DNA of 64,000 nt from Candidatus Pacearchaeota archaeon. Its GTDB lineage: Archaea > Nanobdellota > Nanobdellia > Pacearchaeales > GW2011-AR1. Each line of letters opens with the position of its first letter. Within the stretch, counting starts at the first letter, position 1. The translations under genes were made by a program, and so were the position numbers. The notes beneath the pieces are model-generated. The model had not been told where the DNA came from. It did not search any database and was given only the letters and a program-made list of their open reading frames with translations. This document shows, in pieces, positions 14,019 through 54,227 of this stretch. The stretch covers positions 27,532 to 91,531 of the forward strand of contig JAGVXH010000002.1 in the NCBI GenBank assembly GCA_018303845.1. Direction: 5' to 3'.

Positions 14019-14142
14019 CTTACAAACTTTATAAAACTTCGCGCGACATCCAGCCCATCTAAATACCTAACAATCAAACCCATCCCAATCCTTTCTTCAT
14101 AATCAACTATCACAAAAATTATGCAACAAAATGCCATATTTT

Positions 14143-36900: not shown

Positions 36901-39900
36901 ATTCCCCAAATTAGTAAGCGCACCAGAGTTATTCCTATATCCTGCCCAAATAACATTCTCACTCATAGTCGCATTCAAAAGAACACTCCCGTCCAAATCA
37001 TAAGAATTATTAGAAGGACTCCAAACAGTTATCACGGGGGCAGTACTATCCGCAGGAACAGCATCAACAGTAAACGAAACAGAGCTCACTCCGATATTCC
37101 CAGAAGAGTCCACAGCATAAAAAATAACAGTCTTGCTCTCGTCCGCTCCGGTCGCAACAACGCTATTCCAAGCAGATCCAGAACCAGACAAACTAACATT
37201 AGTAGCCCCACCATCCAAAGAATAATTCGCAGCAGTAGCATTCTCATTTAAACTAATACTAAATAAAATATTCGCAGTACCATAAGTCTGATTCAATGGA
37301 CTATTAATACTAACAACCGGAGCAGTCACATCATTAACCGTAAAAGTTATGGAACTAGAATTAGAATTTCCAGCAACATCACTAGAATAGAAATTACAAA
37401 CATATCCACCCTTAGCAACGCTACTCATCGTATAGTTCATCCATCCAGTTCCAGTCAAACTAATTGTATGATTCACAAAACTTCCCGTAACATTCTCCCC
37501 AATCTTAACATTAGTCAAACCAAAAGCATCCGCGACATAAGCACTACAAACCACATTCTGACTTTCATTCGCAGGATTCGGAGTTGCACCAACATTCGTA
37601 TAAACAGGAGAAACGCCATCAACATAAAACACAATCGTCTTACTTCCCTGATTACTCGAAGTATCATTAGCATAAACAACCAAAGTATTAGTAGATTCAT
37701 CACTCAAAGTAAGCATAGCATTCCAATCAACCATAGTCGTATTTGTCAAAGCAACAACAGAAGAGCCATTCAAAGTATACCCAGCCCAAGTCAAATTTTC
37801 ATTAGCAGTCACATTCAAAATAAGACTAGTCGAAGTGTAATAAGTCGCATTAGAAATCGTATCTATCGTTATCACCGGAGGAACAGTATCGGGGGCAGCA
37901 GTATTAACAGAAAAATAAATCACCGAAGAAACTCCAATATTCCCAGAAGAATCATTAGAATAAAACACAATATTATATGCCCCATCTGATAAATTAGTCA
38001 ATGTACTATTCCATGCCACAAGAGAAGTATTTCCCATACTAACATTCGCAGACCCATTCAAAGAATACCATGCCAAACTAGCATTCTCAGAAACACTAAT
38101 CGAAGCAGAAACATTAGCAACATTATACGTAAGATTACTAGGACTATTAACCGTTATTACCGGAACAGTCACATCATTAACATTAAAATTAACAGAACTA
38201 ACATTAGCGTTCCCGGCAAGATCACTAGCATAAAATTTGCAAGTATACCCACCAAAAGTTCCAAGCTGTGCACCAGAAATCAAATAACTAGCTTCACCAC
38301 TAATTCCAGAAAAAGAAATACTATGATTCTCAAAAGTCCCACTACTATTCTCCCCGATTATAACACCAGTTATATTATACGTATCAGTCCAACTAATAGA
38401 ACAATTAACATCCTGCGAAACATTAGCAGGACTAGGGAAAGCCTGAGCCAAACTATATCTCGGAGCAAGACTATCAGCATAAAACACCGAAGTCTTATTG
38501 TTCAAATTATTAGAAGTGTCATTAGCATAAACAACTAATGTATACGTAGTCTCCTGCGTCAAACTAGTCAAAGTAATATTCCAACTCCGAAGACTACTAT
38601 TCCCCAAATCCGAAACAGAACCACCATTCAAAGAATATCCAGCCCAACGCAAATCTTCATCCGCGGTAATATTAATCAAAGTATTCGCAGGATTCTTATA
38701 ACTTAGATTAGCAGGAGAAACAATCGTAATAGAAGGAGGCGTTGTATCAACCGGAGTCGTATCAATCACAAAAGAATTCCCAGTCAAAGTCCCAATATTC
38801 CCATAGCTATCATTCGCCCAAAAAGTCAAAGAATAAGTCCCATCCGCAATACTCGAATTTGTATGAGTATAACTAAGCAAAGTAGTATTCGCCATAGAAA
38901 CATTAGTCGCCCCACCATTCAAAGAATACCAAGCACGAGATAAAGCCTCGCTAACAGAAACACTAATCGTAACAGAATCCTGAGTTATCGTAGAACCATT
39001 AGTCGGAGAAACCAAAGTAATAATCGGAGCTGTATAATCAGTCGTATAGCTCCCGGTCAAACTATTGTTAGTTGCCGCTTCTCCAAGCTGATCAAAAACA
39101 TAAGCATACCAAGTATGAGTAGAAGAATCTAGTTCCGAAACAAGAACACAAGACAAATTAGCGCCACCAGAATCGCTACAATATTCACCCCCAAAACATC
39201 CACTTGAATTCGCCCCAGAAGAATTACAGACAAAAAGAGAAATCAATTGACTAGCATCAGAATCATAAGACACACTAGAAATATTAACGGCAACTCCACC
39301 TTTAATAATCGTAGCATTATCACTAGCACTCATAAAAGTAGGAAGTTGATTTATATTAATCGTTTTATTTTGAACCTCCTGAATGTTACCTGCATCATCA
39401 CTTGAATTATATCTCAAATAATTTATCCCACGGTTTACAGAAGTAAAAATAATTTGCCCACCATTATCAACACTAACCGAAGGCACACAAGTTCCAACAG
39501 TATCAGTACAATATAGAGTAGTAGGATCCGAATCTACATTATCTGCTTCCGTAATCGTAACAGTATAATTTGGAGCTTGAATAGTAGAAACCGAATTATC
39601 CGAAGTTGTTGGAGCAGTATAATCCAAAAAAAACTGCACATCTAAATTTTGACTAGAATTTTGTCCATTAGTATAATTATCTTGACAAGAAACATACCGC
39701 GCATAAAATCCCTGAGAAGCTACATTATTCACAGAACAATTCGCCCGTATTCCAGATACGGTGCAATCATTAGACATAGAAGAATAGGAAACATCACTTG
39801 AACTCCATCGACAGCTCATATTCGCCTCGCCAGAAACAACGATGTTCGTCACCCCATCATTTACTATATCAAAATAACTAGCAGCACTATCTCCAGCAAC

Positions 39901-40827
39901 ACTAACTATCGAAGTCGTTGGAGGAGTAGAATCTGTAATGTAAGTCACATTTGGAACAACCGAAGAATAAGCTGCCCCATCATAAACTCTACAATACTCT
40001 GTATAATTCGTGCTCGTAACAGCCGTAGCAAAAGTGCAAGACAAACTATATGGATAAGTCCCACTAGTAGTCCCACCAGTGCAATCTGTATTCGCAGAAG
40101 TAGGTAAATTAGTGGAATCACAAAATAATTGTAAAGTATTCAAGTCACTATCATTTACTCCATTACGCGTAGTATTCGCGTAGATAGTTATCGTATCCCC
40201 TCCCTTAATCACGGAATGACTTGCACTAATATTCGCAATCACAGGCTCAGCATTTGCAGAATAAGTCACATTAAAATACATCACATCCCAAGTCCCAGTC
40301 TCAGTCGTAGCAGGACCAGTTCCAATTCTTGACATTTCAGATTTCGCAAGCCCCCTAGTTCCACTCGCTCCAAAAAAATTCCCACAACTCCAAGTTTCCA
40401 GACTAGTTACATTTGAACAAGTTATAGAAGCCGGCTCACTAATTGCAGGACAAGTCGTAGTCACAACACTATAACTAGCTCCTCCATTAGCATCGACAGA
40501 AACATCACAATCCTGAGGCGTAGCAGTATTAGTTCTCCACCACTTGTAACAAACAAAAACCTGAGAAACCCCACCACAACTAAGCATGGAGCTATTTACC
40601 GACTGTATTCTTACACCCCCATAAGTACTTTTCAAATAAGTATGAGTCTCAAGAGAAGCATCGTCATTAATCAAAAAAGAACCCGTAGTATTATCACAAA
40701 CTCCCGCAAAACTTCCCTTAATTGCATTATCTTCCGCAGAACAAGTACTCACAACATTCGTGAACACAGCAGCACTCCCAAAAGTTCCAATAAAAACTCC
40801 AATCAACAAAACAAAAATTAACCTCAT
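33931..40827 (-). CDS. Giant (2298 aa) type-I membrane surface protein/adhesin with tandem Ig-like repeats, Gly-rich linker, C-terminal TM and cytoplasmic coiled-coil tail
   Basis: It has a signal peptide, more than 100 N-x-S/T sequons, and about 90-aa repeats (xP.IT..SP.N.SY...WAGYSLNG..) alternating with about 110-aa P.PAN.SQ.V.C modules in an A-A-B pattern repeated three times. There is a GGGGSGGGGGGASG linker, then TM FLFLYWPFIFLGVFFIFLGGIFGY, then a tail of about 180 aa. Confidence 0.8.
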   Translation of the reverse strand: MRLIFVLLIGVFIGTFGSAAVFTNVVSTCSAEDNAIKGSFAGVCDNTTGSFLINDDASLETHTYLKSTYGGVRIQSVNSSMLSCGGVSQVFVCYKWWRTNTATPQDCDVSVDANGGASYSVVTTTCPAISEPASITCSNVTSLETWSCGNFFGASGTRGLAKSEMSRIGTGPATTETGTWDVMYFNVTYSANAEPVIANISASHSVIKGGDTITIYANTTRNGVNDSDLNTLQLFCDSTNLPTSANTDCTGGTTSGTYPYSLSCTFATAVTSTNYTEYCRVYDGAAYSSVVPNVTYITDSTPPTTSIVSVAGDSAASYFDIVNDGVTNIVVSGEANMSCRWSSSDVSYSSMSNDCTVSGIRANCSVNNVASQGFYARYVSCQDNYTNGQNSSQNLDVQFFLDYTAPTTSDNSVSTIQAPNYTVTITEADNVDSDPTTLYCTDTVGTCVPSVSVDNGGQIIFTSVNRGINYLRYNSSDDAGNIQEVQNKTININQLPTFMSASDNATIIKGGVAVNISSVSYDSDASQLISLFVCNSSGANSSGCFGGEYCSDSGGANLSCVLVSELDSSTHTWYAYVFDQLGEAATNNSLTGSYTTDYTAPIITLVSPTNGSTITQDSVTISVSVSEALSRAWYSLNGGATNVSMANTTLLSYTHTNSSIADGTYSLTFWANDSYGNIGTLTGNSFVIDTTPVDTTPPSITIVSPANLSYKNPANTLINITADEDLRWAGYSLNGGSVSDLGNSSLRSWNITLTSLTQETTYTLVVYANDTSNNLNNKTSVFYADSLAPRYSLAQAFPSPANVSQDVNCSISWTDTYNITGVIIGENSSGTFENHSISFSGISGEASYLISGAQLGTFGGYTCKFYASDLAGNANVSSVNFNVNDVTVPVITVNSPSNLTYNVANVSASISVSENASLAWYSLNGSANVSMGNTSLVAWNSTLTNLSDGAYNIVFYSNDSSGNIGVSSVIYFSVNTAAPDTVPPVITIDTISNATYYTSTSLILNVTANENLTWAGYTLNGSSVVALTNTTMVDWNAMLTLSDESTNTLVVYANDTSSNQGSKTIVFYVDGVSPVYTNVGATPNPANESQNVVCSAYVADAFGLTNVKIGENVTGSFVNHTISLTGTGWMNYTMSSVAKGGYVCNFYSSDVAGNSNSSSITFTVNDVTAPVVSINSPLNQTYGTANILFSISLNENATAANYSLDGGATNVSLSGSGSAWNSVVATGADESKTVIFYAVDSSGNIGVSSVSFTVDAVPADSTAPVITVWSPSNNSYDLDGSVLLNATMSENVIWAGYRNNSGALTNLGNTSSTSWNATVNFVEGQHNVIFYANDSSGNQGNSSVIVYVDLTVPAVNNFSCSDSNDSVNVVCVVNVSDAVGLDYVIVSYNASGTWVNSSDIDLSGTLNSTSYTIGSGNHSPPGFSARLYVYDLAGRVNDSSIDDVVIFDDTAPVINNITYFPNSTDGLDPVVVVNVNSSITEDYNISSVVLMYKNSTETNWSFVSMNNNSDLVVGSSSVIVYNGSFIPEADNWTFKINATDFAGNRNISANTVIVVGNDTSHNVSAVIGSIVSLVYADRASNNSLGNVILNNTGDVDLNFNVSLSSSSIGSRLSVNYSGNLSVNYSVGSGSFANITIDVNTTGLISGLYSYNVTVVSAAGVEIFERRLNLQTAVGPYLVVDIGTYSGSVTAGDSSVNLVATVTNLGTADATDVYLSWTLPSVFSVSSGSLTRSLGALPIGGSGSNSLVVSVSSSATDSSVSIVAVANSSNADSANASKAVTIGAGTIVASTVVSITGGGGSGGGGGGASGESVVYSKVIEIVRGGEDSFEITVDNKYINSTLENLTLSLNGFMSKYIKISPLVVGPIGYRESGKFNINVRVPAYKEVMEEHTLVAVISGQLVVGGAARSYRETQNILLIIQEASFEDTSLSLLAAEKAILEMKLAGFNTIQVEDFFAKAKLKLGERKNAEALELSESILDLRDLAFETQGLIDGVFESLRNPVKMGVITGNAVKDAYADDSIRANMNSIFTGWAIFGDKSVEDILNLAKVAFERGDYALANERIKEAQNLLLFNRKGNFTLFLFLYWPFIFLGVFFIFLGGIFGYRKYQKSVASSRIIDINREEENIRKLMTASQQQYFTGVISSGEYHRIMNQYEKRLANLRGVRLTLRNQRIGILKPREIISELDSERIQAEAEVKKLQNDYYKNKKIGTDSYELQFRILNERLAEIEGERMTVLLMKERVNKISSKSVASGNKEDKGESKIIDKGFAKKVFVGRKGFLGRNVHGKWIKIKGGKNEK

Positions 40828-41106
40828 CCGATCTCCTCCATATGCGCCATAATCAACCTCTCAACCCGCTTAGAAAGCATAACATCATTCTTATCGCAAA
40901 AATCCTGAAACTTCCCATAAACATCCACGTCCAAACTAAGAGTCACCTTCTTTCTCATAACAAAGCCAACCACTTTTTATTATTAAGAATTCTTACGCAC
41001 ATATACGTACATAACAACACATCCATATATTACAAAGAAATACATAGAAGAAAATACCATAAGTATACCTACAAAGAAATACAAAACCAAACTAACCTAA
41101 ATCCCA

Positions 41107-41136
41107 AATCCGTGAGAATCCGTGAGAATCCGTGTG
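41107..41136. repeat. Short tandem repeat (aatccgtgag) x 3
   Basis: It reads aatccgtgagaatccgtgagaatccgtgtg, in the promoter-proximal region of the giant surface protein gene. Confidence 0.6.
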
Positions 41137-41194: not shown

Positions 41195-42154
41195 CTAATC
41201 AATCTCACTAAAAACTTCTTGCTCAGGATAAACCATTATCCCCTCTCCAGTAATTTGCATCGCAACAATCTTCTTTTGATGTGCGGCCCCTCGAAGCTTC
41301 AAAACCTCTATCGCATTTTCTCTAACATTCCCATGTTTCAAATTATAAAACACGATAACCCCATCGGCCAAAAACTCCTCAACACCAGAAGTGCTAAAAA
41401 TCTTTGGAATTTGCTCAGTTTCCGTAATCAAAAAACTAGTCGCTCCAATCTTCTCAAAAAACCTAAACAACTGCTCGATATAAATCCGATAACTATCCTC
41501 CTTGCCAGTAAACGCCGAAGCAATCGCAGTTAAAGAGTCCAGTGCAATAAAGTCAGGCTTAAAGCCGCTTGGAATAATCACCGGGTCAACATCAATTAAT
41601 AATTCACCTTTCTCTTTAGCAAGAAGCGCATCGACATTTCGAGTAATCTCAAACGGACTAATCCTTTGAATTTTCAACAGCCCCTTCTTAATAAGCTTAT
41701 CAGCTCCCCATCCAAAACCATTCATATGATCAATCAATCTTTCCTCTCTCTCTTCAAAACTCATATACAAACATTTTTTACCAGCCTCTGCCTGATGAAC
41801 CAAAGTCTGCAAACTAAAAATAGTCTTACCACTTCCCGCTCCTCCTGCAACCAAAACAGCACTACCTTCAGGGATACCCTTATCCAAAAGTTCATCAAAC
41901 CCAGGAACTCCAGTCATAATATATTTCCTGTTATCTTTCTTAACTTTTACAGAAGATTTATTTTTCATACTAGCTAAATTTTTAAAAGAGGCTCTCTGAC
42001 TAGAGATTTGCTCAGCCCTAACCTCTTTTGCAATTTCTGAAACATCTATCTTCCCTTTGACAACTTTCTTCGATACAGCTTTCTTCGATACAGCTTTTTT
42101 CAAAACAACTTTCTTTCTAATCACAGACCCAACCTTCTTTTTCTTTCCTACCAC
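41195..42154 (-). CDS. KaiC/RadA-like RecA-superfamily ATPase with Lys-rich N-terminal extension
   Basis: GVPGFDELLDKGIPEGSAVLVAGGAGSGKT (Walker A) and the KaiC-domain layout are present. The 70-aa N-terminus is K-rich. Confidence 0.7.
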   Translation of the reverse strand: MVGKKKKVGSVIRKKVVLKKAVSKKAVSKKVVKGKIDVSEIAKEVRAEQISSQRASFKNLASMKNKSSVKVKKDNRKYIMTGVPGFDELLDKGIPEGSAVLVAGGAGSGKTIFSLQTLVHQAEAGKKCLYMSFEEREERLIDHMNGFGWGADKLIKKGLLKIQRISPFEITRNVDALLAKEKGELLIDVDPVIIPSGFKPDFIALDSLTAIASAFTGKEDSYRIYIEQLFRFFEKIGATSFLITETEQIPKIFSTSGVEEFLADGVIVFYNLKHGNVRENAIEVLKLRGAAHQKKIVAMQITGEGIMVYPEQEVFSEID

Positions 42155-42200
42155 AAATAGGAATAGTAAAAACCTTATAATTACCCTTATACGAACATAT
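42155..42200 (-). promoter_or_regulatory. Conserved 46-bp promoter/operator element (copy 1 of 2)
   Basis: aaataggaatagtaaaaaccttataattacccttatacgaacatatt lies immediately 5' of the KaiC-like start. It matches 48996..49042 upstream of the receiver-kinase operon at 41 of 46 positions and contains a TATA-like ttataagg at about -28. Confidence 0.55.
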
Positions 42201-42608
42201 TTACTTTAATCCACAAGCCCGAAAATTTTCCACATATTTATGATCCATTTTAATCAAATGATCTTCCCACCAACTTTTTAAAAAATTTAAAACATCATCA
42301 GCACTACAAGTCCCATTCTGAAAATTTCTATAAAGCAAAAGAACTTTTGCAATATATCCCATATGGGCCGCTACATGGGCCTCGGCTCCTCCATAATTAC
42401 ATTTTGCAAAATAATTTTCTTCCGTAGTAAAATGCACACGAGCAAATTCAATAAGCTCATTTAATATCCTGTTCCCCTTCTCCTTATCTTTATCCCAATC
42501 AATATCATGCGCCCAATTAATCAAACCAAGAAGTTTCTTATGCTGGTTATCAATTTCCTCCACATGAACACTAACACTTTCACTCCATTTAATAAACACC
42601 ACAATCAT
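42201..42608 (-). CDS. Hemerythrin (bacteriohemerythrin-like O2/iron-binding)
   Basis: IDNQHKKL..HFTTEE..H..AH matches hemerythrin metal-ligand spacing. Confidence 0.7.
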   Translation of the reverse strand: MIVVFIKWSESVSVHVEEIDNQHKKLLGLINWAHDIDWDKDKEKGNRILNELIEFARVHFTTEENYFAKCNYGGAEAHVAAHMGYIAKVLLLYRNFQNGTCSADDVLNFLKSWWEDHLIKMDHKYVENFRACGLK

Positions 42609-42620
42609 TCAGAAATATCC

Positions 42621-43802
42621 CTATTTTTTCAAAGGAATATCTTTCTTCCCTCCTTCATCCTTACTAATATTTTTTTCAGAAAAAACCTTTTTTTCATTTG
42701 AGCCAGAAATTTTCTTAGCAGGAACCTCGCATTCATCTCCTAGGCACAAAAAACTACCGCTAGAACCAGTTCTCAAAATTGCTAATTTTAATGACGCTAG
42801 TATTCGATTCAAAGAATCTGCCAAATTCTGAATTTCAAAGATACTACTTTTTTCCAGTTGGATTTCCAATTTGCCTTTTGTTATTTCGTCAACATCAAAC
42901 GCCAATTTCTTGATAGGATTCAAAATAAAAAAAGAAACAATCCACCCAATCAGAGAAACAAAAATGATGATAATGGCTACAATAACAATCGCTTTTCTAA
43001 TCAATTGATTCCGAGCAATACCGAGTGCTTCAGCTTCATCAATTTTAACAACAAGTCCAACATCCATCTCATCAATATATCTCGTCACTGCGAGAACTTC
43101 AACATTACGGTAATCAAACAAACCATAGGCAACCCCTTCTTCTTTGTCCAATGCCTTTTCAATAGGCAAAATGCCAATCAATCTTTCTCTTTCATCAACA
43201 GCCTCTTCCTCAAACCTCCTTTCTGTAAACAAAGAAACGCTCCCATCAACAGTACGATAGGCTAGCAACACCTCACCAGTTTCACCTAAACCCGTCCTAT
43301 CGGATACAAATTCATTAAAACTATCCAAATCAATTCTTGCAACCAAAACATCCTCATGAAAAGGAACAGAGATGGCAATAGATTCTTTTTGAACAGTTTC
43401 AGAAAAATAAGCAGGTTTAACATACACATCTTCTCTAACATTAATAAAATAAGCATCCCCTGATTTATCTTTTCCCACCTGAGATTCATCAGAACTAGCA
43501 ACCACTTTCCCCTCAGGGTCTAAAATAAAAATCTCATAAAATTCTTCCTGCAATTCTATTATCGCCCTTAACTCCTCAGAAGAAAGTTCTTGATGCGTAG
43601 CAGCTATCTTTAATTTTTCTTTTTGCTCTTCCAAAACCTCTTCAATAAAATTTTCAAGTGACTGCGCGACAGATTCTAAATTTAAAACAACCTTTTCTTC
43701 CAATAAAGAATTAGCCTCAATATAATAAGAATACATTCCAACGATACTCCCAACCGTACCTACAAAAATAAATGACATAATCAGTACAACTAAAAATTTC
43801 AT
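42621..43802 (-). CDS. Membrane sensor protein with periplasmic Cache-like domain and HAMP domain (no output domain)
   Basis: A TM helix, a roughly 250-aa extracytoplasmic domain, a second TM, a HAMP-like segment and a short tail are present. No kinase or MA domain follows. Confidence 0.5.
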   Translation of the reverse strand: MKFLVVLIMSFIFVGTVGSIVGMYSYYIEANSLLEEKVVLNLESVAQSLENFIEEVLEEQKEKLKIAATHQELSSEELRAIIELQEEFYEIFILDPEGKVVASSDESQVGKDKSGDAYFINVREDVYVKPAYFSETVQKESIAISVPFHEDVLVARIDLDSFNEFVSDRTGLGETGEVLLAYRTVDGSVSLFTERRFEEEAVDERERLIGILPIEKALDKEEGVAYGLFDYRNVEVLAVTRYIDEMDVGLVVKIDEAEALGIARNQLIRKAIVIVAIIIIFVSLIGWIVSFFILNPIKKLAFDVDEITKGKLEIQLEKSSIFEIQNLADSLNRILASLKLAILRTGSSGSFLCLGDECEVPAKKISGSNEKKVFSEKNISKDEGGKKDIPLKK

Positions 43803-44230
43803 TTCTTCACCTCGTAATATTTTTCATAAACGGGGAAAAGCACCCCTTCTTCAAGGTTAATCCTTTTTATAACGACCTGAGCAATTAGACTAAGTTCATT
43901 TTTAAATTTAAAATTTTCAAATAAATACTTTACACTCTCGTTCTTATGTCTCTCAAAAAAATCCATACTCACTCCAAAAATTGCCAACATCTCTTCAGAA
44001 AATAAACTCCCTAACTTTTTAACACTAGCATCGTCACATTTAGAAAAAAATGGATACAACATCTTATTCTCCAAATCAAGATGGGCAACAAGAATATCTT
44101 TTAACATTCTTAAATCCCTCACCAAATCATCAGCCTCAATCAATTGATCAGAAAAATATTCTTGTATATTATTAAACATTCGCTCAATCTCAATATGTTC
44201 CTGTTTCAGTCGTAAGATTAATCCAATCAT
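43799..44230 (-). CDS. Hemerythrin-like HHE cation-binding domain protein
   Basis: It has repeated H..E / H...E ligand patterns in a four-helix layout. It is translationally coupled to the flanking genes. Confidence 0.45.
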   Translation of the reverse strand: MIGLILRLKQEHIEIERMFNNIQEYFSDQLIEADDLVRDLRMLKDILVAHLDLENKMLYPFFSKCDDASVKKLGSLFSEEMLAIFGVSMDFFERHKNESVKYLFENFKFKNELSLIAQVVIKRINLEEGVLFPVYEKYYEVKK

Positions 44231-47200
44231 TTTTCATTCTCCTTACTCCCAAATATACTAGAGATTGCTTCTTTAAAAACTTCACCATTTTCTTCTTTCA
44301 ATATTCCCTTTTCCGTCAAATCGTTAATATATGAAATCAAATCTTTCTCAAATAACTTATCCTTCTTCTCCAAAAGCTCAAACTCCTGTTTTCCCATGGG
44401 ACCAAGCATTTTAACAAATAAATCCTTAATCTTATCCTTACTATTCTCCTGTATAGAAAACAATAATTTAATTGGCTTAATCTCTTTAGTAGGTTTAAGA
44501 GGCAAGGTAAAATTAAATGTAGTTCCTTTACCAACAACACTTTCCAGCCAAACCTTACCACCTTGAGACTCAACAATTCCTTTAACAATAGCAAGACCAA
44601 GTCCCGTTCCCTGATATTCACGATAGATCGTCTGCTCAACCTGGAAAAAGGGCTCAAAAAGTCTTTGTTGAGATTTCGCATCTATACCAATGCCATGGTC
44701 AGCAACCGAAAACAAAATCATATCTCCCTTTAATTTGGCCTTAACATCAACAGTCGAACCTTCTTTGGAAAATTTAATGGCATTGTTAATCAAATTTCTC
44801 AAAACTTGAGATAATCTATTCGGATCGTGCTCAACAATTGGCAATTTTTCTATACTAGGAATAATAGTAATCTTTTTTTCCGGCATAAACCCTTTCATCT
44901 CTTCAATAACTTGAAGAACAACCTTACCAGGATCATCTCTAACAAACTTAAACTTTAACCGAGCAGCTTCAATCCTAGAAATCTCCAAAAAATCAACAAT
45001 AATACCGTCCAACCTCTTCGTGTTCCTAGAAACAATCTCAATAGCAGTCTTCTGCTCGTCAGTCAACTTCCCATAATATTCGCCAAGTAACATCTGCAAC
45101 TGAGCCTGCATCGGAGTCATGGGAGACCGAAGTTCATGAGAGGTAATAGACAAAAATTCCGTCTTAGCTTTCTCCAATTGTTTATACTCTATTTCCATTC
45201 TGTCCAACGCCTCAGCAGTACTATTAAGAGTCTCACCAAGCGTCTGCAACTCATCGCCAGTATCAATATTAGTCCTAGCCTTAAAATTCTTCTTCCGCAA
45301 CTCTTGCGCCACAACATTTAATTCAGCAATAGGTTTAGAGACTCTATTTGAAACATAAAAACCAAGTCCTACAAAAATAGAAAAAACAATGAAAAGGATA
45401 AACAAAATAACAAACCTAATATTAATCATAATATTATAGTCCTTTGTGGCATTTATTGAAGAAAATATCACTGCAGGTTTTTCATTATAAACATCAACCA
45501 TGGAAAATCCCCCACAAGCAAATACCTCATCATCTAACTTGGAAATTTTCAAAAGAGAAGATTTTTTTCTCAATAACTCAACATTTTCTTCTGAAAAACA
45601 AGGAAAGATTTTTTCAGAATTACTGCTGACTATAACATACTCTTCAAAATCATCCCAATTATTTCTTAATCCCTGAGATTTCCTTGAAGAAGCCCAGTCC
45701 ATTTCATCTAATGAGCCTTTATCTGCAACCATTAAAAAATCATCTCCCTTTCTTTTTTCCATAATATCAAAAAATCCGTCAATCCCTTGAGCTAATTCCA
45801 CATAACCAATCAAATCATCCCCATCATAATACGGGGCCACTACTCTTAACGCATAAGTAGTTTTCCCAAGTTCAATCCCAGAACTCACCAATCCAGTTTC
45901 TTTAGCTTTCAAAAAAGAAGATCTCTTAATCTCATCTCCAAAAATACTTTTATCATGGAGCCGAACAAAACTGGTCCCATTAGGTTCTATAAAATAAAAA
46001 TGCGTTATTCCATATTCATTTTTAAGTTCCGAAAACAACGGATAACTATACTCAAACAATTTCTCCCTATCTCTTTCAAGATAAAGATGCCTCATACTTT
46101 CATCATTTAAAACAACTTCAAGCGTTGCGGATAAACGAGTTATACTGGCCTCCTGCAAATCAAAAAAATCTTCCTCATTTTCAAGTACAGCATCAAAAAA
46201 TTGACGTTCAAGAATTTGATTTTGATAATAAACGACAAGGGCGCCAATTAAAACTATTTCAAACAAAATAATAAATAGAATCACCATAAACTTTTTATCA
46301 ATCTTACTAAAAATTACTTCCTTCGAAGATGAAACATTCGTATTTTTTTTCTTACGAACAATAATCCCAACACCAATCGCAATCGCAATAACAATAGCAA
46401 TCGCAATAAAATAAAATTTGAAACTTATTCCAGGAACAGGTTCAGAAGGCGTCAGTTGAATAGACAACATTATTCCACCAAAAACACCAACATCTTCATA
46501 ATTAGTATTTGGATTAGAATACAAAACAGGAACAGCTAATGTAACCTTAGTTCTGCCACCAACATCAGTAGCATAAGAGACAAACGTCTCCTTATCTTCC
46601 AAAACCTGCCTCGCCATTTCGCTATAAGCAAAAGATCCGCGATACTTATACAAATTAAATATGCTTCCCTCTCTCGTAGAATTAGGCTCATTAAATCCAG
46701 CCAATTGCCCATCCTCTAAATAACCTAAAACATTATCAGGCTTTGGATGAAAAATAGTATTCCCCTCCAAATCAAAAACTAAAAGATAATTCCGAGCATA
46801 AGTGCTACTGATTACAATTTCATCCCTAGCAGGTTCAATGTGCTTAAACAATTCCTGCAAATGCCTATAATCTAAAGACAAAACAACAACACCCTTGAAA
46901 ACTCCGTCCCTATAAACTGGAGAAGAAAATCTTATCACTCCTTGCTTCAAAATATCTCTTCCAATAACTTCTTCATAAATTTTCCCCTCTTTCGCCTCGA
47001 CAGAAGCTCCCTCAAAAACATCATCAAATCCAACATACCAAGTCAAAACTTTCCCAATAAAAACCTCGCCACTATCTAAACCCTTAGTGTCTTCAAAATA
47101 AACTTCAGATTTAAATTCTGTATTCTCTTGGACAGAAACATCCAAAAGATTATCCGAAAATCCATCCTCACTATATTTAATAATTTCTTTCCCATCAGCT

Positions 47201-47520
47201 CCAATAAAAACAATGTCCCTATAAATGGGAATAACTTTTTTTTTCTCTATAGGAAAATTGTCACTTCCCAAATTAAACCAAATCTCAGAATTATGATCAG
47301 CATAAAAATCACGAATAGAATTTTTCGCAACCTCAATATCAGAATAATCAAAATTTGCAACCTCAATAGTTTCGTCAACCCTTTTATCTAAAAAAGAACC
47401 AAAATTCTCAGCAATCTTTAAACCTTCAGTTTCAAAATCACTTTCATGGGTTGCAAAAATCCCAGGAGCCAGAAAAAGACCAATTAAAAAACCAATTAAA
47501 AAAAATCTTCCCAAATACAT
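44227..47520 (-). CDS. Large sensor histidine kinase (double periplasmic sensor domain, TM, HAMP, HisKA, HATPase_c)
   Basis: The H-box is ITSHELRSPMTP. The N, G1 and G2 boxes include GTGLGLAIVKG. The periplasmic region is about 350 aa. Confidence 0.85.
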   Translation of the reverse strand: MYLGRFFLIGFLIGLFLAPGIFATHESDFETEGLKIAENFGSFLDKRVDETIEVANFDYSDIEVAKNSIRDFYADHNSEIWFNLGSDNFPIEKKKVIPIYRDIVFIGADGKEIIKYSEDGFSDNLLDVSVQENTEFKSEVYFEDTKGLDSGEVFIGKVLTWYVGFDDVFEGASVEAKEGKIYEEVIGRDILKQGVIRFSSPVYRDGVFKGVVVLSLDYRHLQELFKHIEPARDEIVISSTYARNYLLVFDLEGNTIFHPKPDNVLGYLEDGQLAGFNEPNSTREGSIFNLYKYRGSFAYSEMARQVLEDKETFVSYATDVGGRTKVTLAVPVLYSNPNTNYEDVGVFGGIMLSIQLTPSEPVPGISFKFYFIAIAIVIAIAIGVGIIVRKKKNTNVSSSKEVIFSKIDKKFMVILFIILFEIVLIGALVVYYQNQILERQFFDAVLENEEDFFDLQEASITRLSATLEVVLNDESMRHLYLERDREKLFEYSYPLFSELKNEYGITHFYFIEPNGTSFVRLHDKSIFGDEIKRSSFLKAKETGLVSSGIELGKTTYALRVVAPYYDGDDLIGYVELAQGIDGFFDIMEKRKGDDFLMVADKGSLDEMDWASSRKSQGLRNNWDDFEEYVIVSSNSEKIFPCFSEENVELLRKKSSLLKISKLDDEVFACGGFSMVDVYNEKPAVIFSSINATKDYNIMINIRFVILFILFIVFSIFVGLGFYVSNRVSKPIAELNVVAQELRKKNFKARTNIDTGDELQTLGETLNSTAEALDRMEIEYKQLEKAKTEFLSITSHELRSPMTPMQAQLQMLLGEYYGKLTDEQKTAIEIVSRNTKRLDGIIVDFLEISRIEAARLKFKFVRDDPGKVVLQVIEEMKGFMPEKKITIIPSIEKLPIVEHDPNRLSQVLRNLINNAIKFSKEGSTVDVKAKLKGDMILFSVADHGIGIDAKSQQRLFEPFFQVEQTIYREYQGTGLGLAIVKGIVESQGGKVWLESVVGKGTTFNFTLPLKPTKEIKPIKLLFSIQENSKDKIKDLFVKMLGPMGKQEFELLEKKDKLFEKDLISYINDLTEKGILKEENGEVFKEAISSIFGSKENEK

Positions 47521-47560
47521 TTCGTCAACAAGAAAACGTCATTAAATAAAACACCATTTC

Positions 47561-48157
47561 CTACCCCTCCTTATTAATTTTTATTTTTTCAATTTTTTCA
47601 TTAGAGAGAACAAAAGATTTAGAAAACTTGCCACGAATAACCTTATCCACAACAGTTCCAACTTTAGCAATAAGGTCTTCATTATTAGAAGATTCAACCG
47701 CATAAAAAATAGCTCGAGTTTTAGACCTCTTAACCTTATCAACCAAATCAGCAAGAAACTTATTACACATATTATTATCCTGATAAGTCAAAAGATTAGT
47801 CACTGCATCAAAAACCAAATAATCAAAATCATGTTTCAAAAATTTTTTAATAACTAGTGACAATTCCGTCAAAGCCCCAGGACTCGAAACATAATAAACA
47901 TCTTCAGATTGATCCGGAATTTTCATCATCGCTTTAGAAATAGTATCAATAAAAACAATATTCCCAATCTCAATCTTCTTCTTTAAAAAAATTTCTTTCA
48001 AAGAATAAAAAGTTTTATTCGTGGTAATATAACAAATATTCCCAGACAATTTTTTTATCACACTAACAATATTCTCGTTATATTCACCACTAGACATAAC
48101 AAAAAGAATAGTCTGATTAGATTTCAATTCAGATTTAATATCCACCATCTTAGCCAA
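47561..48157 (-). CDS. KaiC/RecA-fold-like protein lacking Walker A (probable pseudo-ATPase)
   Basis: The beta-alpha pattern resembles a KaiC domain (ILFVMSSGE.., YLVFDAVTNLL), but no GxxxxGK[ST] motif is present. Confidence 0.35.
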   Translation of the reverse strand: MAKMVDIKSELKSNQTILFVMSSGEYNENIVSVIKKLSGNICYITTNKTFYSLKEIFLKKKIEIGNIVFIDTISKAMMKIPDQSEDVYYVSSPGALTELSLVIKKFLKHDFDYLVFDAVTNLLTYQDNNMCNKFLADLVDKVKRSKTRAIFYAVESSNNEDLIAKVGTVVDKVIRGKFSKSFVLSNEKIEKIKINKEG

Positions 48158-48503
48158 TTAACTCCTTTACTTTATTCAAAAGCTTATCAATATCAAAAGG
48201 CTTCTGAATAAAACCAACAATATTTTTCGATTTCATCAAATCTTCCTTCTCGGCTTCAGAAATTCTAACAACACTCAAATAAGCTACCTTGGCTCCCATC
48301 ATTTTAGGAATAATATCTCTAACGGGGGTCCCAGGCATCATAATATCCATCAAAACCAAATCCGATTTTTTCTCTGCCCATTTCTTCAACGCATCATCCC
48401 CACTAACCGCAAGAATAACATTATAGCCATTTTTTTCCAAAATCATCTTCACCGTAGTCCTATTGTCAGCTTCATCATCAACAACCATAACCGTCTTAAC
48501 CAT
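48150..48503 (-). CDS. CheY-like response regulator receiver (stand-alone)
   Basis: It has DD..D (phospho-acceptor), T and K in a roughly 117-aa REC domain. Confidence 0.85.
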   Translation of the reverse strand: MVKTVMVVDDEADNRTTVKMILEKNGYNVILAVSGDDALKKWAEKKSDLVLMDIMMPGTPVRDIIPKMMGAKVAYLSVVRISEAEKEDLMKSKNIVGFIQKPFDIDKLLNKVKELIG

Positions 48504-48638
48504 TCTTTCCGCTACCTCCTTTTATCCAATCAAAAATACAAACATCCATCTGCATCAAAACCCCTTCTCCTTCAGCAACAATTACCATAAATTTAACATC
48601 TCCTTTAACCCTCCAAATAAGACCAAAAAGTCATAACC

Positions 48639-48995
48639 TCATCTTTTGTTAATTACTTCCTTTACAGTCTTCAATAAAACTCCTGAAGAAAATGGTTTCT
48701 GAATAAAACCATCCACATTCCCCATATCAACCTCTTTACGGGGAACAATCGAAACATAAATTATTTTAATTTTTTTATTAGATCTCCATTTCAATAACCT
48801 AGAAAAATCATAACCAGAAAGCGTCGGCATCTTAATATCAAGCAAAATAACATCAACCTCATTAACTCCTAATAAATCCAAGGCAACGGCACCATTCCCA
48901 GCCATGACAACTTCATAGCCATCCTTCTTAAGAAAACTCCCCATAAGCTCTCTGTCTTCCTCATCATCATCAACAATTAAAATCTTTTTCGCCAT
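48639..48995 (-). CDS. CheY-like response regulator receiver (stand-alone)
   Basis: ILIVDDDEEDRE...ILLDIKMP is a canonical REC domain. Confidence 0.85.
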   Translation of the reverse strand: MAKKILIVDDDEEDRELMGSFLKKDGYEVVMAGNGAVALDLLGVNEVDVILLDIKMPTLSGYDFSRLLKWRSNKKIKIIYVSIVPRKEVDMGNVDGFIQKPFSSGVLLKTVKEVINKR

Positions 48996-49042
48996 AAATA
49001 GGAATAGAAAAAACTATATAATTACTCTTATACGAACATATT
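48996..49042 (-). promoter_or_regulatory. Conserved 46-bp promoter/operator element (copy 2 of 2)
   Basis: aaataggaatagaaaaaactatataattactcttatacgaacatatt lies immediately 5' of the receiver start. Confidence 0.55.
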
Positions 49043-49284
49043 CAAATCGGAATCTTCTTCCCGCATTCCGAGCAAAACTTCACTCCGCTTTCAATTGGCC
49101 AACCACATTCACACCTCTTCACCTTCTCTTCTCTCTTCTCAATAACAGCCGTATAATCCCCTCGTCCAGACATTACCTTCCCAATAATCTTTGCTATCTT
49201 CTCTTGCTCTTTCTCGTCATTCTGATACCGCGTCAAATCAAATCCTTCCATGTTCATTTTAGGGAAAACACTAGGGCCTCCCAT
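49042..49284 (-). CDS. Small zinc-ribbon protein
   Basis: C-terminal CECGWP...CSECG. Confidence 0.4.
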   Translation of the reverse strand: MGGPSVFPKMNMEGFDLTRYQNDEKEQEKIAKIIGKVMSGRGDYTAVIEKREEKVKRCECGWPIESGVKFCSECGKKIPI

Positions 49285-49635: not shown

Positions 49636-49708
49636 AGCCTCCGGCGGGAGTCAAACCCGCGACCTCAACATTACGAGTGTTGCGCTCTGTCAACTGAGCT
49701 ACGAAGGC
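49636..49708 (-). tRNA. tRNA-Thr (anticodon CGU)
   Basis: Manual fold: acceptor GCCUUCG/CGAGGGC-type 7 bp, D-stem GCUC/GAGC, anticodon stem CAACA/UGUUG with loop CUCGUAA, T-arm GCGGG-UUUGACU-CCCGC. Confidence 0.8.
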
Positions 49709-50859: not shown

Positions 50860-50908
50860 CTCTAAACATCAACGATTAATTAATATAAATATTTAACTAA
50901 CAAAAATC

Positions 50909-53092: not shown

Positions 53093-53133
53093 AAAAATTA
53101 GTTATAAGGATTTCGCGAACAACATCATTAACA

Positions 53134-53727: not shown

Positions 53728-53816
53728 AACAAATTAAAAAAAATTCTTTATTTAACGACTTCGCTGAAACTAGTTACATCAACAAAATATTTATACCACA
53801 ACATACAAAACAAATT

Positions 53817-54227
53817 ATGAAAACAAAAATCCTTCCAATTTTCCTAATCGCCTTCGCAACAAACGCAATCTGGGAACTCCTCCACTATCCCCTCTACATC
53901 GACCTATCCGGCATCCCCCAATATCCACATCTTTTCCTAGCAACAATAACTGACGCCATCATTATAACAACAATCTTCCTAATCATCTCCCTAAAAAACT
54001 CCTCATCCAACTGGACAAAAAACCCAAAAAAAACAGATTACCTAATAGCACTAATTCTACCAATTGCAATAGCAATAGCAATAGAAACAAGAGCCCTAAA
54101 AATACAAAGATGGGCATATACTTCTTCAATGCCAACAATTCTAGGAATCGGCTTAAGTCCCCTAATTCAGTTAGCAACAACATCAATAATAACATTTGCA
54201 ATAATCAAAAAAATAAAATCTACCTAA
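53817..54227 (+). CDS. Hypothetical membrane protein
   Basis: Four predicted TM helices. Confidence 0.35.
   Translation: MKTKILPIFLIAFATNAIWELLHYPLYIDLSGIPQYPHLFLATITDAIIITTIFLIISLKNSSSNWTKNPKKTDYLIALILPIAIAIAIETRALKIQRWAYTSSMPTILGIGLSPLIQLATTSIITFAIIKKIKST

What the first reader, a model, noticed from the sequence alone, without database searches (positions are those of the whole stretch)
41195..49284. Signal-transduction island combining KaiC-like ATPases, two hemerythrin-type proteins, a HAMP sensor, a giant histidine kinase and two single-domain receivers
Ten consecutive minus-strand genes, several translationally coupled, are: zinc ribbon, REC, REC, KaiC-like without P-loop, a 1097-aa HK with double sensor domain, HHE-domain protein, Cache-HAMP sensor with no output domain, hemerythrin, KaiC-like ATPase. 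There is no DNA-binding output domain. The outputs are two stand-alone CheY-like receivers and KaiC-family proteins. This suggests an O2/iron/NO-responsive (hemerythrin) phosphorelay feeding a KaiC-type timing or ATPase module, not a transcription factor.
Basis: partly seen in the sequence, partly recalled or inferred. Interest (0 to 1): 0.6.

Follow-up and report, generated by a model that had tools for sequence, protein, structure and literature searches.

The report
DPANN histidine-kinase–KaiC signalling operon
This stretch of a tiny groundwater archaeon (Pacearchaeota) encodes a real gene cluster, conserved across many related lineages, that joins a bacterial-type two-component sensor system to KaiC-family ATPases, with an oxygen-binding hemerythrin attached to the KaiC side; it is a new variant of an already proposed archaeal signalling principle, not a clock.

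Summary
Nine (not ten) consecutive minus-strand genes at 41195-49284 encode a Zn-ribbon protein, REC, REC, a P-loop-less KaiC-fold protein (DUF7090, "iKaiC"), a 1097-aa double-Cache histidine kinase, an HHE-like protein, a Cache-HAMP sensor without output, a bacteriohemerythrin and an active single-domain KaiC. The source is a Pacearchaeota (DPANN) genome from the Rifle aquifer. In 75 species-level loci, the REC-iKaiC pair is adjacent in 55. Of the 26 with at least 8 kb downstream, 23 have the kinase, 19 an output-less sensor and 15 a KaiC. Hemerythrin-type genes are optional (8/26). They sit directly before KaiC or are fused to it, so they most likely feed KaiC, not the phosphorelay. The stand-alone hemerythrin keeps all seven di-iron ligands; the HHE-like protein keeps only part of the set. 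Nothing supports timing: there is one KaiC domain and no KaiA/KaiB. "No DNA-binding output" needs qualifying. Orthologous KaiCs carry an N-terminal wHTH where this one has a Lys-rich tail, and an RHH-like gene coupled to a 2298-aa surface protein follows. The kinase has an unannotated C-terminal helical domain that also occurs on KaiC ATPases. This is a new variant of the "KaiC hub" idea.

The parts
49636..49708 (-). tRNA-Thr(CGT); upstream boundary of the cluster
   Evidence: ARAGORN and Rfam
49042..49284 (-). 80-aa Zn-ribbon protein (CxC...CxxC at residues 58-74); conserved only in close relatives
   Evidence: PF13240 at 26.5 bits. The profile found only 7 hits among the loci, e.g. L012.
48639..48995 (-). 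REC1, stand-alone receiver (D9-D11, D53, S82, K100)
   Evidence: PF00072, E 8e-21; motif positions
48150..48503 (-). REC2, stand-alone receiver that is always coupled to iKaiC; D9, D10, D53, S77 and K101 are invariant in 59 sequences
   Evidence: PF00072, E 2e-17. 56 of 57 iKaiC-adjacent RECs are of the REC2 type.
47561..48148 (-). iKaiC: DUF7090 protein with a KaiC/ArlH fold and no Walker A (SSGEYNEN in its place); the Walker-B-like Asp is retained; family motif VSSPGALTELS
   Evidence: PF23365, 32.6 bits. AF2 pLDDT 86.7. Foldseek top hits are FlaH 4YDS at 8e-7, then KaiC and PH0284. Alignment A1. Start codon.
44227..47520 (-). Histidine kinase, 1097 aa. It has four TM helices, two extracytoplasmic Cache-type domains (dCache_1 between TM1 and TM2, dCache_3 between TM3 and TM4), HAMP, HisKA (H795) and HATPase_c (N-box 909, G1 941, G2 971).
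44230..44490 (-). C-terminal ~85-aa helical 'tail' domain of the kinase (IKLLFS...LGPxGxxEF...Y...L..kGI...FK). It has no Pfam or NCBIfam family and also occurs at the C-terminus of KaiC ATPases.
   Evidence: All 120 best kinase homologues have it. It matches 203 50%-identity clusters in 1.84e9 proteins, among them KaiC+tail proteins P0357, P0364, P0373 and P0361, and a double KaiC in L064. The AF2 model has four helices. There is no PDB fold match. HTH-family matches are weak only.
43799..44230 (-). HHE/hemerythrin-like four-helix protein, 143 aa, with a reduced ligand set (H12, H50, E54, E80, R123, E127/E128 invariant)
   Evidence: PF01814 at 35 bits, partial match; family alignment; hhalign to the hemerythrin family
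42621..43802 (-). Membrane sensor: TM, dCache, TM, HAMP, then a ~50-aa Lys-rich tail; no output domain
   Evidence: dCache_1, E 3.7e-9. The HAMP region aligns to HK HAMPs. TM helices. Homologues show HAMP/PAS/MASE3 variants at the same position.
42201..42608 (-). Bacteriohemerythrin, 135 aa, with all seven di-iron ligands (H23, H59, E63, H78, H82, H117, D122)
   Evidence: NF033749, 106 bits, above its cut-off. Alignment to DcrH-Hr 2AVK. The ligands are invariant in A5, including the KaiC-fused copies.
41195..42154 (-). Single-domain KaiC-family ATPase, 319 aa. It has a 75-aa Lys/Arg-rich N-terminal tail, a conserved linker motif IDVSEIAKEVRAEQ (36-49), Walker A 104-111, catalytic EE 134-135, Walker B D206 and R288.
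   Evidence: PF06745, E 2.7e-51. Alignment to KaiC CI. 70-87% identical to orthologues in other DPANN. The N-terminal slot is variable.
41107..41136 (.). 10-bp tandem repeat x3 (AATCCGTGAG) in the KaiC-RHH intergenic region, together with a 14-nt direct repeat at 41031-41044 / 41070-41083; candidate operator sites
   Evidence: function not tested
40824..40958 (-). 44-aa RHH-like protein, ATGA-coupled to the giant gene; found after KaiC in at least 6 lineages
   Evidence: Family hits are weak only: DUF6364, RHH_1, Omega repressor, CopG.
33931..40827 (-). 2298-aa Ig-like surface protein (N-terminal signal/anchor, TM at 2080-2098); a recurrent downstream neighbour
   Evidence: Big_3_4/Big_13; TM helices; a giant protein of at least 800 aa is present in 10 of 26 informative loci

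Best explanation
The region is one copy of a signalling operon conserved across DPANN archaea. It wires a bacterial-type two-component system to KaiC-family ATPases.

Proposed flow; every step is inferred unless marked shown.

1. The membrane kinase senses extracellular ligands through its two Cache domains. It is probably helped by the co-translated HHE-like protein and by the output-less Cache-HAMP sensor. It autophosphorylates on H795.
2. Phosphate passes to the stand-alone receivers. REC2 is the dedicated partner of the P-loop-less KaiC-fold protein iKaiC. Together they work as a split version of the REC-iKaiC response regulators known from other archaea.
3. REC2~P/iKaiC binds the active KaiC ATPase and changes its oligomeric or ATPase state. 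KaiC also takes a second, direct input from the hemerythrin: the O2/redox state of its di-iron site.
4. KaiC acts on downstream targets through its variable N-terminal module, which here is a Lys-rich tail and in relatives a wHTH or a hemerythrin. The most likely targets are the adjacent RHH regulator with its giant surface protein, and in some lineages type IV pilus genes.

Shown: the domain identities, the intact catalytic and ligand residues, the conserved gene order, the fusions, and the helical domain shared by the kinase and KaiC ATPases.
For: Gene content and intact motifs.

Conservation:
- 55 of 75 species-level loci have the REC-iKaiC pair with a gap of about -10 to +12 nt.
- Of the 26 with at least 8 kb downstream, 23 have the kinase (21 with the tail), 19 an output-less sensor and 15 a KaiC.
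- Independent context look-ups give the same order in Pace-, Woese- and Nanoarchaeia.

REC2 and iKaiC:
- REC2 is a distinct orthologous group that always sits next to iKaiC.
- iKaiC has a KaiC/ArlH fold and lacks the P-loop.
- An iKaiC-family gene lies directly next to a KaiC gene in 15 of 33 loci that contain KaiC. These include KaiC-iKaiC-iKaiC triplets with no two-component genes.

Hemerythrin and KaiC:
- Hemerythrin-KaiC fusions occur in L012, L017 and L026.
- A hemerythrin gene lies immediately before KaiC in the window, L008, L011, L030 and L085; L040 and L052 have an HHE-like gene in that position.

Kinase tail: the tail domain also occurs C-terminal to KaiC ATPase domains.

Precedents:
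- REC-iKaiC (DUF835, MEDS) response regulators, and the KaiC-hub proposal (PMC5847659).
- The KaiC-like proteins ArlH and CirA regulate the archaellum and cell shape, and CirA turned up in the same screen as a two-component regulator (PMC10983859, PMC13464002).
Against: - No interaction or phosphotransfer has been tested. The direction of flow (kinase to KaiC, or KaiC to kinase) is not determined.
- KaiC is missing from 11 of 26 informative loci. A complete 1.07-Mb genome (L090) has REC-REC-kinase(tail)-PAS sensor with no iKaiC or KaiC nearby, so the tail does not strictly require KaiC.
- A KaiC+tail protein (L089) has no iKaiC neighbour.
- The output is guessed from neighbourhood only. A giant protein is present in 10 of 26 loci and T4P genes in 3 of 26. 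In this window the T4P locus is 27 kb away.
- The tail domain has no significant structural match, and only sub-threshold HTH similarities.
Confidence: 0.6

Rival explanations
1. Reverse wiring, as in cyanobacterial SasA/CikA. KaiC is the upstream integrator, loaded with the hemerythrin and output-less-sensor inputs. It docks on the kinase through the kinase's extra C-terminal domain and sets kinase/phosphatase activity. The REC proteins, with iKaiC as effector, are the outputs.
For: - Input-type domains (hemerythrin, Zn ribbon) are fused to KaiC in relatives.
- The kinase carries an extra domain that is shared with KaiC ATPases.
- From general knowledge: SasA binds KaiC through an added KaiB-like domain.
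- The REC2-iKaiC pair comes first in the operon and is its most conserved part.
Against: - The kinase has two large extracellular sensor domains of its own, so it does not need KaiC as its sensor.
- Some orthologous KaiCs carry an output-type wHTH.
- Kinase+tail systems exist without KaiC.
Confidence: 0.2
2. The module regulates pili or surface structures. iKaiC acts like ArlH and docks onto a PilB/ArlI-type ATPase of the type IV pilus machinery under REC~P control. The big KaiC and the hemerythrin are side branches.
For: - The best structural match of iKaiC is FlaH/ArlH.
- T2SSE/T2SSF genes directly abut the REC-iKaiC-kinase genes in L009/L019, L054, L059, L063 and L065.
- The window has its own T4P-like locus at 6843-11719.
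- ArlH-ArlI and CirA provide precedents.
Against: - Only about 6 of 75 loci show this adjacency (3 of the 26 informative ones).
- The KaiCs next to T4P genes belong to a different subfamily, 29-32% identical.
- In the window the T4P genes are 27 kb away.
Confidence: 0.12
3. One reading: a hemerythrin-driven O2/iron/NO phosphorelay feeding a KaiC timing device.
For: - An intact di-iron hemerythrin and an HHE-like protein lie inside the operon.
- The HHE gene overlaps the kinase stop codon.
- A KaiC is present.
Against: - Hemerythrins are absent from most homologous loci, and where present they associate with KaiC.
- The HHE ligand set is incomplete.
- The kinase's sensors are extracellular Cache domains.
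- There is one KaiC domain. Circadian-KaiC NCBIfam scores are 104-140 bits against cut-offs of 408-546. No KaiA/KaiB was found.
Confidence: 0.05
4. A chance neighbourhood of independent signalling genes, with the hemerythrins acting only as oxidative-stress protectants.
For: - Hemerythrins can protect Fe-S enzymes such as POR (PMC4257069).
- The window encodes POR and rubrerythrin.
Against: - Gene order is conserved across several DPANN phyla.
- Start and stop codons overlap.
- Hemerythrin-KaiC fusions exist.
Confidence: 0.03

Closest known systems
Archaeal 'KaiC-like ATPase signalling hubs' (Makarova, Galperin & Koonin 2017, as summarised in PMC5847659)
   Same: - A single-domain KaiC ATPase together with an inactivated KaiC homologue.
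- Both are encoded with sensor, REC and HTH components.
- Input and output modules are fused variably to KaiC.
   Different: - The original paper was not available to me, so I cannot say whether this arrangement is listed there.
- That census had only about 4 complete DPANN genomes.
- The features seen here do not appear in the papers I could read: the fixed REC2-iKaiC(DUF7090)-kinase(tail)-sensor-(hemerythrin)-KaiC order, the hemerythrin-KaiC fusions, and the kinase/KaiC-shared tail domain.
REC-iKaiC response regulators (REC-DUF835, REC-MEDS, iKaiC-REC; Galperin et al. 2018, PMC5847659 Table 2)
   Same: A receiver domain is paired with an inactivated KaiC-fold domain as the presumed protein-interaction output.
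   Different: - Here the two are separate genes with a 1-nt spacer, never fused in the 75 loci.
- The iKaiC belongs to DUF7090, not to DUF835 or MEDS (DUF835 scores only E 0.008).
Cyanobacterial KaiC-SasA/CikA-RpaA output pathway
   Same: A KaiC ATPase is functionally coupled to HisKA-type kinases and a receiver, and the kinase carries an extra domain for contact with KaiC.
   Different: - No KaiA/KaiB.
- One KaiC domain instead of two.
- No KaiB-like domain on the kinase; it has an unrelated helical tail instead.
- No evidence for oscillation.
ArlH (FlaH)/ArlI and Haloferax CirA
   Same: - KaiC-fold proteins that regulate a type IV-pilus-like machine and cell behaviour.
- iKaiC's best fold match is FlaH.
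   Different: - iKaiC lacks the P-loop that ArlH needs.
- NCBIfam ArlH scores are far below the cut-off (45 against 215 bits for KaiC; no hit for iKaiC).
- There is no arl operon.
DcrH-Hr and other hemerythrin-domain O2/redox sensors (PMC9388753)
   Same: - The same seven-ligand di-iron site, with 2AVK as the best PDB match.
- Located in a signalling context in an anaerobe.
   Different: The partner is a KaiC ATPase, adjacent or fused, rather than the MCP, GGDEF, HD-GYP or P-type ATPase partners listed in that review. It is also archaeal.
GvpD-GvpE (haloarchaeal gas-vesicle regulation; general knowledge)
   Same: A KaiC-family ATPase that controls a small transcription regulator through protein-protein contact. 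This is a possible analogue of KaiC acting on the RHH protein.
   Different: There is no homology of the regulator, and the interaction is untested here.

Membership tests
KaiC superfamily ATPase (PF06745), gene 41195-42154 | RecA-like domain with Walker A GxxxxGK[TS], a catalytic Glu pair, a Walker B Asp and an Arg finger | tested here: met
   PF06745 scores 174.6 bits against a cut-off of 26.6. GGAGSGKT is at 104-111, SFEE at 132-135, FIALDS at 202-207 and LKLRG at 285-289, all aligned to KaiC CI.
Circadian KaiC (KaiABC oscillator) | Two tandem KaiC domains (CI + CII) and a score above the equivalog cut-off | tested here: not met
   There is one domain only. NF006799 scores 139.5 against 408 and TIGR02655 scores 103.6 against 546.
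Circadian KaiC (KaiABC oscillator) | KaiB (and KaiA) partners encoded with it | tested here: not met
   No KaiA/KaiB family appeared among the Pfam hits of the roughly 55 ORFs scanned in the window. The rest of the genome was not available.
ArlH/FlaH | NCBIfam equivalog score and arl-operon context | tested here: not met
   NF052589 scores 45.3 against a cut-off of 215 for KaiC, and gives no hit for iKaiC. There are no arl genes next to the cluster.
Inactivated KaiC (iKaiC) / DUF7090, gene 47561-48148 | KaiC/RecA-like fold | tested here: met
   AF2 pLDDT is 86.7. Foldseek gives FlaH 4YDS at 8e-7, and KaiC and PH0284 at 1e-5 or better. PF23365 scores 32.6 against a cut-off of 27.
Inactivated KaiC (iKaiC) / DUF7090, gene 47561-48148 | Loss of the nucleotide-binding P-loop | tested here: met
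   No GxxxxGK[ST] in any of the 18 aligned members. The window protein has SSGEYNEN at that position.
REC-iKaiC response regulators (Galperin 2018) | REC and iKaiC in one polypeptide | tested here: not met
   They are always separate ORFs in 55 loci, with a gap of about -10 to +12 nt. This makes them a functional analogue, not a member.
Hemerythrin / bacteriohemerythrin, gene 42201-42608 | H-HxxxE-HxxxH-HxxxxD di-iron ligand set | tested here: met
   H23, H59, E63, H78, H82, H117 and D122 align to the DcrH-Hr ligands and are invariant in the family. NF033749 scores 106 against a cut-off of 84. Metal binding itself cannot be tested here.
Hemerythrin HHE cation-binding domain, gene 43799-44230 | Pfam gathering score | tested here: met
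   PF01814 scores 35.1 against 25.3, but only residues 4-61 match, and they match the C-terminal half of the model.
Hemerythrin HHE cation-binding domain, gene 43799-44230 | Complete set of His/Glu metal ligands on four helices | tested here: not met
   Only H12, H50, E54, E80 and E127/E128 are conserved. R123 stands where the fourth-helix His is expected, and H94 is not conserved.
HisKA-type sensor histidine kinase, gene 44227-47520 | H-box His plus N, G1 and G2 boxes, with a HAMP linker | tested here: met
   HisKA E 1.4e-14, HATPase_c E 2e-30, HAMP E 8e-8. H795, N-box 909, G1 941 and G2 971.
CheY-like stand-alone receivers, genes 48150-48503 and 48639-48995 | Acidic pocket DD, phospho-acceptor Asp, Ser/Thr and Lys | tested here: met
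   REC1 has D9-D11, D53, S82 and K100. REC2 has D9, D10, D53, S77 and K101, invariant in 59 sequences.
Winged-helix DNA-binding domain (candidate identity of the kinase tail) | Significant profile match or a wHTH fold | tested here: inconclusive
   Only sub-threshold hits: MCM_C in 6 of 25 members with best E 9e-4, Sso10a in 7 of 31, and LrpA at 1.7e-5 in one member. The AF2 model has four helices and no beta-wing. There is no PDB match below E = 3.

The most novel reading that the evidence does not exclude
Many DPANN archaea carry one dedicated sensory pathway. A two-component kinase and a hemerythrin-gated KaiC ATPase are joined by a pseudo-ATPase adaptor (REC2-iKaiC) and by a previously undescribed helical docking domain shared by the kinase and KaiC ATPases. 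The pathway controls the giant surface adhesin (through the RHH protein) or pili, that is, contact with the host cell in response to oxygen and extracellular cues.
Probability: 0.3. Interest if true: 0.75.

Novelty: new variant of a known kind. Interest (0 to 1): 0.55.

Why it matters
DPANN archaea have very small genomes and are thought to depend on host cells, yet almost nothing is known about how they sense their surroundings. The 2018 census of archaeal two-component systems had only four complete DPANN genomes and found at most one kinase in them (PMC5847659).

This cluster shows a signalling operon that is widespread in Pace-, Woese- and Nanoarchaeia, Iainarchaeum and others. Its parts are strongly conserved: the KaiC core is 70-87% identical and iKaiC about 50-60%.

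It gives the "KaiC hub" hypothesis a concrete, testable wiring diagram:
- a dedicated REC-iKaiC pair;
- hemerythrin-KaiC fusions that point to O2/redox gating of a KaiC ATPase, a partner type not listed for hemerythrin sensors;
- an unannotated domain shared by kinases and KaiC ATPases that could be the physical link.

The recurrent RHH plus giant-surface-protein neighbour suggests a link to host attachment.

Tried and rejected
- **Makarova 2017 paper:** it could not be read, whether by DOI or PMC id. Comparison with it relies on later papers that cite it.
- **Word-index search with the 87-aa tail alone:** it found nothing. The tail family was recovered through the longer kinase query and the exhaustive profile search.
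- **HHE protein against PDB sequences:** no hit.
- **Sigma-70 promoter and intrinsic-terminator scan:** at background level and not relevant for an archaeon.
- **iKaiC next to tail-bearing KaiC P0373:** the neighbouring gene is not iKaiC.
- **The tail-bearing kinase always needs iKaiC/KaiC:** rejected by L090.
- **The 30-aa ORF between the REC genes called by JGI (48496-48588):** it has no support and is treated as spurious.
- **Literature search for DPANN/KaiC/hemerythrin combinations:** nothing found.

Full report
**1. What is there**

The region 41195-49284 holds nine consecutive minus-strand ORFs. Pfam and NCBIfam reproduce every domain call.

- Zn-ribbon protein, 49042-49284.
- REC1, 48639-48995.
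- REC2, 48150-48503.
- A DUF7090 protein, 47561-48148.
- A 1097-aa kinase, 44227-47520, with dCache_1, dCache_3, HAMP, HisKA and HATPase_c.
- An HHE/hemerythrin-like protein, 43799-44230.
- A dCache-TM-HAMP protein with no output domain, 42621-43802.
- A bacteriohemerythrin, 42201-42608.
- A KaiC-family ATPase, 41195-42154.

Three junctions are translationally coupled. REC2/iKaiC reads TAA-g-ATG. HK/HHE and HHE/sensor both overlap as ATGA. A tRNA-Thr (49636-49708) bounds the cluster upstream.

**2. Source**

The kinase sequence is found, identical and in the same gene order, on 23 contigs from Rifle aquifer metagenomes. NCBI names the DUF7090 protein as coming from a Candidatus Pacearchaeota archaeon. 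The window also encodes ABCE1/RLI, archaeal-type aminoacyl-tRNA synthetases, POR, rubrerythrin and a type IV pilus-like locus. This is a chromosomal region of a DPANN archaeon.

**3. Anatomy of the parts**

*Kinase.* It has four TM helices that place both Cache-type domains outside the cell. H795 and the N, G1 and G2 boxes are intact.

*Receivers.* Both keep the acidic pocket, the acceptor Asp53, Ser and Lys.

*KaiC.* It is a single RecA-like domain with Walker A, the catalytic Glu pair, Walker B and the Arg finger, all aligned to KaiC CI. It scores far below the NCBIfam cut-offs for circadian KaiC, the archaeal KaiC equivalogs and ArlH. A 75-residue tail with 33% Lys+Arg precedes the domain.

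*DUF7090 protein.* It lacks any P-loop. It still folds with confidence (pLDDT 86.7) into a KaiC/ArlH-like domain. The best PDB matches are FlaH 4YDS, KaiC and PH0284. It is therefore an inactivated KaiC ("iKaiC").

*135-aa hemerythrin.* It aligns along its length with DcrH-Hr and keeps all seven di-iron ligands. These are invariant in the family.

*143-aa HHE-like protein.* It passes the Pfam threshold on only half of the model. It conserves H12, H50xxxE54, E80 and RxxxE127E128. The first helix pair matches hemerythrin, but the second pair has lost its histidines.

**4. Conservation elsewhere**

A search with iKaiC found 118 relatives, almost all from DPANN. Context look-ups in Pace-, Woese- and Nanoarchaeia gave the same order: REC(s), iKaiC, kinase, output-less sensor, KaiC.

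A scan of one genome per species returned 75 loci. I called ORFs in these and labelled them with profiles built from the window proteins.

- 55 loci have a REC gene directly before iKaiC, with a gap mostly between -10 and +12 nt.
- Among the 26 with at least 8 kb downstream, 23 have the kinase and 21 of those carry its C-terminal tail.
- 19 have an output-less sensor (Cache-HAMP, PAS or MASE3).
- 15 have KaiC.
- 8 have a hemerythrin-type gene.
- 10 have a giant (at least 800 aa) Ig-like protein.
- 3 have T2SSE/T2SSF genes.

The REC next to iKaiC is a separate orthologous group equal to the window's REC2 (56 of 57). The KaiC core is 70-87% identical among Pace-, Woese- and Nanoarchaeia loci. 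An iKaiC-family gene lies directly beside a KaiC gene in 15 of the 33 loci that contain KaiC. These include KaiC-iKaiC-iKaiC triplets without any two-component genes in Altiarchaeota-labelled and other contigs. That links iKaiC to KaiC independently of the kinase.

**5. Where the hemerythrin belongs**

When a hemerythrin gene is present downstream of the kinase, it usually sits immediately before KaiC; this holds for the window, L008, L011, L030 and L085, while L040 and L052 have an HHE-like gene there. In three lineages it is fused to the N-terminus of the orthologous KaiC: L012 (465 aa), L017 (543 aa) and L026. The fused copies keep the ligands, apart from one His-to-Asn change in L026.

The same N-terminal slot of KaiC holds other modules in other lineages:
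- a wHTH in L010, L023 and L035 (HTH_24 at E 1.5e-5, above threshold, in L035);
- a Zn ribbon in L036;
- a Lys-rich tail in the window and several others.

A conserved linker motif (IDVSEIAKEVRAEQ..QR.P) precedes the ATPase domain in all of them. The hemerythrin is therefore best read as an optional input module of KaiC, not as the stimulus of the phosphorelay.

**6. An unannotated domain on the kinase**

The last ~85 residues of the kinase are conserved in all 120 best homologues, out of 1088 with E below 1e-30. The motif is IKLLFS...F...LGPxGxxEF...Y...L..kGI...FK. No Pfam or NCBIfam family reaches threshold. Only weak, recurrent HTH-type similarities appear. AF2 gives a four-helix domain with pLDDT around 90 in the core. 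It has no PDB fold match.

An exhaustive profile search found 203 clusters. Most are at the C-terminus of kinases. Several lie C-terminal to a KaiC ATPase domain: P0357, P0364, P0373 and P0361, and a double-domain KaiC in L064. In the hits I examined, the domain therefore follows either a kinase catalytic core or a KaiC ATPase domain. This makes it a candidate docking module between the two systems.

It is not strictly tied to KaiC, however. A 1.07-Mb genome has REC-REC-kinase(tail)-PAS sensor without iKaiC or KaiC nearby.

**7. Downstream neighbours**

A 44-aa ORF (40824-40958) lies 236 nt after KaiC. It has a ribbon-helix-helix-like pattern and overlaps, as ATGA, the start of a 2298-aa Ig-like surface protein. 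KaiC followed by this small protein recurs in the window lineage, L008, L012, L021, L035 and L085, and a giant protein follows it in the window, L008, L035 and L085. Family assignment of the small protein is weak only. The intergenic region carries a 10-bp triple tandem repeat and a 14-nt direct repeat.

In about six loci the REC-iKaiC-kinase genes abut T2SSE/T2SSF pilus genes and a KaiC of another subfamily.

**8. Most likely mechanism** (inference; confidence about 0.6)

1. The kinase senses extracellular ligands and phosphorylates the stand-alone receivers.
2. REC2~P works with its co-translated partner iKaiC as a split response regulator. This is analogous to the REC-DUF835 and REC-MEDS fusions listed by Galperin et al. 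2018.
3. iKaiC contacts the active KaiC ATPase.
4. KaiC also integrates the O2/redox state of the hemerythrin. It acts through its N-terminal module on targets such as the RHH/giant-adhesin unit or pili.

The main rival keeps the same parts but reverses the flow, with KaiC modulating the kinase as in cyanobacterial SasA/CikA. The data cannot decide between these. Nothing supports a timing function.

**9. Relation to known systems**

The cluster fits the proposal that KaiC-like ATPases and their inactivated homologues are signalling hubs in archaea, and that archaeal two-component systems signal mainly by protein-protein contacts (PMC5847659). Experimental parallels are ArlH-ArlI, and Haloferax CirA together with a two-component regulator in motility and shape control.

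It is not a member of circadian KaiC, of ArlH, or of the fused REC-iKaiC regulators, because defining features were tested and not met. The hemerythrin is a true member of its family. Its partner, a KaiC ATPase, is not among those reviewed for hemerythrin sensors. I found no paper in the held library that combines DPANN, KaiC and hemerythrin.

**10. Verdict**

The TCS-KaiC coupling, the stand-alone receivers and the intact hemerythrin hold up. The placement of the hemerythrin in the phosphorelay, the timing idea and the exclusion of transcriptional output do not.

It is a new variant of a known kind, of moderate to good interest. That interest comes mainly from three things: the module is so widespread in the poorly understood DPANN archaea, the fusions give a clear prediction, and the kinase/KaiC-shared domain is a new handle.

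Noticed in passing
window 1-64000: Strand asymmetry is extreme throughout. GC skew is -0.05 to -0.56 and AT skew +0.03 to +0.45 in every 2-kb bin. The + strand stays A+C-rich even where genes lie on the + strand (16-27 kb). The bias is therefore not only a coding-strand effect.
   Followed up: no
window 6843-14754 (-): A type IV pilus-like locus: two T2SSF genes (6843-7670, 7667-9154) and a T2SSE ATPase (10175-11719). Five small ORFs without Pfam hits (11808-14754) lie next to it and may be pilins. It lies 27 kb from the signalling cluster; in some relatives such genes abut the cluster.
   Followed up: partly
window 40824-40958 (-) and 33931-40827 (-): A 44-aa RHH-like ORF is ATGA-coupled to a 2298-aa Ig-like surface protein. 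That protein has an N-terminal anchor and a TM helix at residues 2080-2098, which leaves about 200 residues after it. The pair recurs after KaiC in other DPANN.
   Followed up: partly
window 41031-41136: The KaiC-RHH intergenic region holds a 10-bp tandem repeat x3 (AATCCGTGAG, 41107-41136) and a 14-nt direct repeat (TACAAAGAAATACA, 41031-41044 and 41070-41083). These are possible operator sites.
   Followed up: no
window 44230-44490 (-); P0195, P0239: The kinase tail domain occurs in two or three tandem copies in some proteins, for example P0195 (647 aa, 3 copies) and P0239 (331 aa, 3 copies).
   Followed up: no
window 49741-54750 (-); L008 776-5363: A CMAS-type methyltransferase, an HMA-domain P1B-type ATPase, a 197-aa ORF without hits and a DUF7343/MarR-like regulator lie upstream of the cluster. 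The DUF7343 regulator and the HMA ATPase also lie upstream of the cluster in L008.
   Followed up: no
window 29099-29767 (+): A 222-aa ORF matches only the C-terminal part of the pyruvate kinase barrel (model positions 177-328). It may be a truncated or split pyruvate kinase.
   Followed up: no
L023 15209-17320: A 704-aa protein lies between the sensor and a wHTH-KaiC. It has an N-terminal hemerythrin with complete ligands, followed by about 500 residues of Lys/Glu-rich coiled-coil repeats.
   Followed up: no
L013, L073, L079, L080, L082: A more distant iKaiC subfamily (31-37% identical) occurs as KaiC-iKaiC-iKaiC triplets without REC or kinase genes. The contigs are labelled Altiarchaeota and Methanobacteriota.
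   Followed up: partly
output-less sensors in many loci (e.g. window 42621-42770, L009, L028, L030): The output-less sensor proteins usually end in a Lys/Arg-rich tail, much like the N-terminal tail of KaiC. It is unclear whether this is functional or only a compositional bias of these AT-rich genomes.
   Followed up: no
window 31-612 (-): A rubrerythrin gene is present, which fits an oxygen-sensitive lifestyle. POR genes lie at 18165-20548. Both bear on why a hemerythrin O2/redox sensor might be useful.
   Followed up: no
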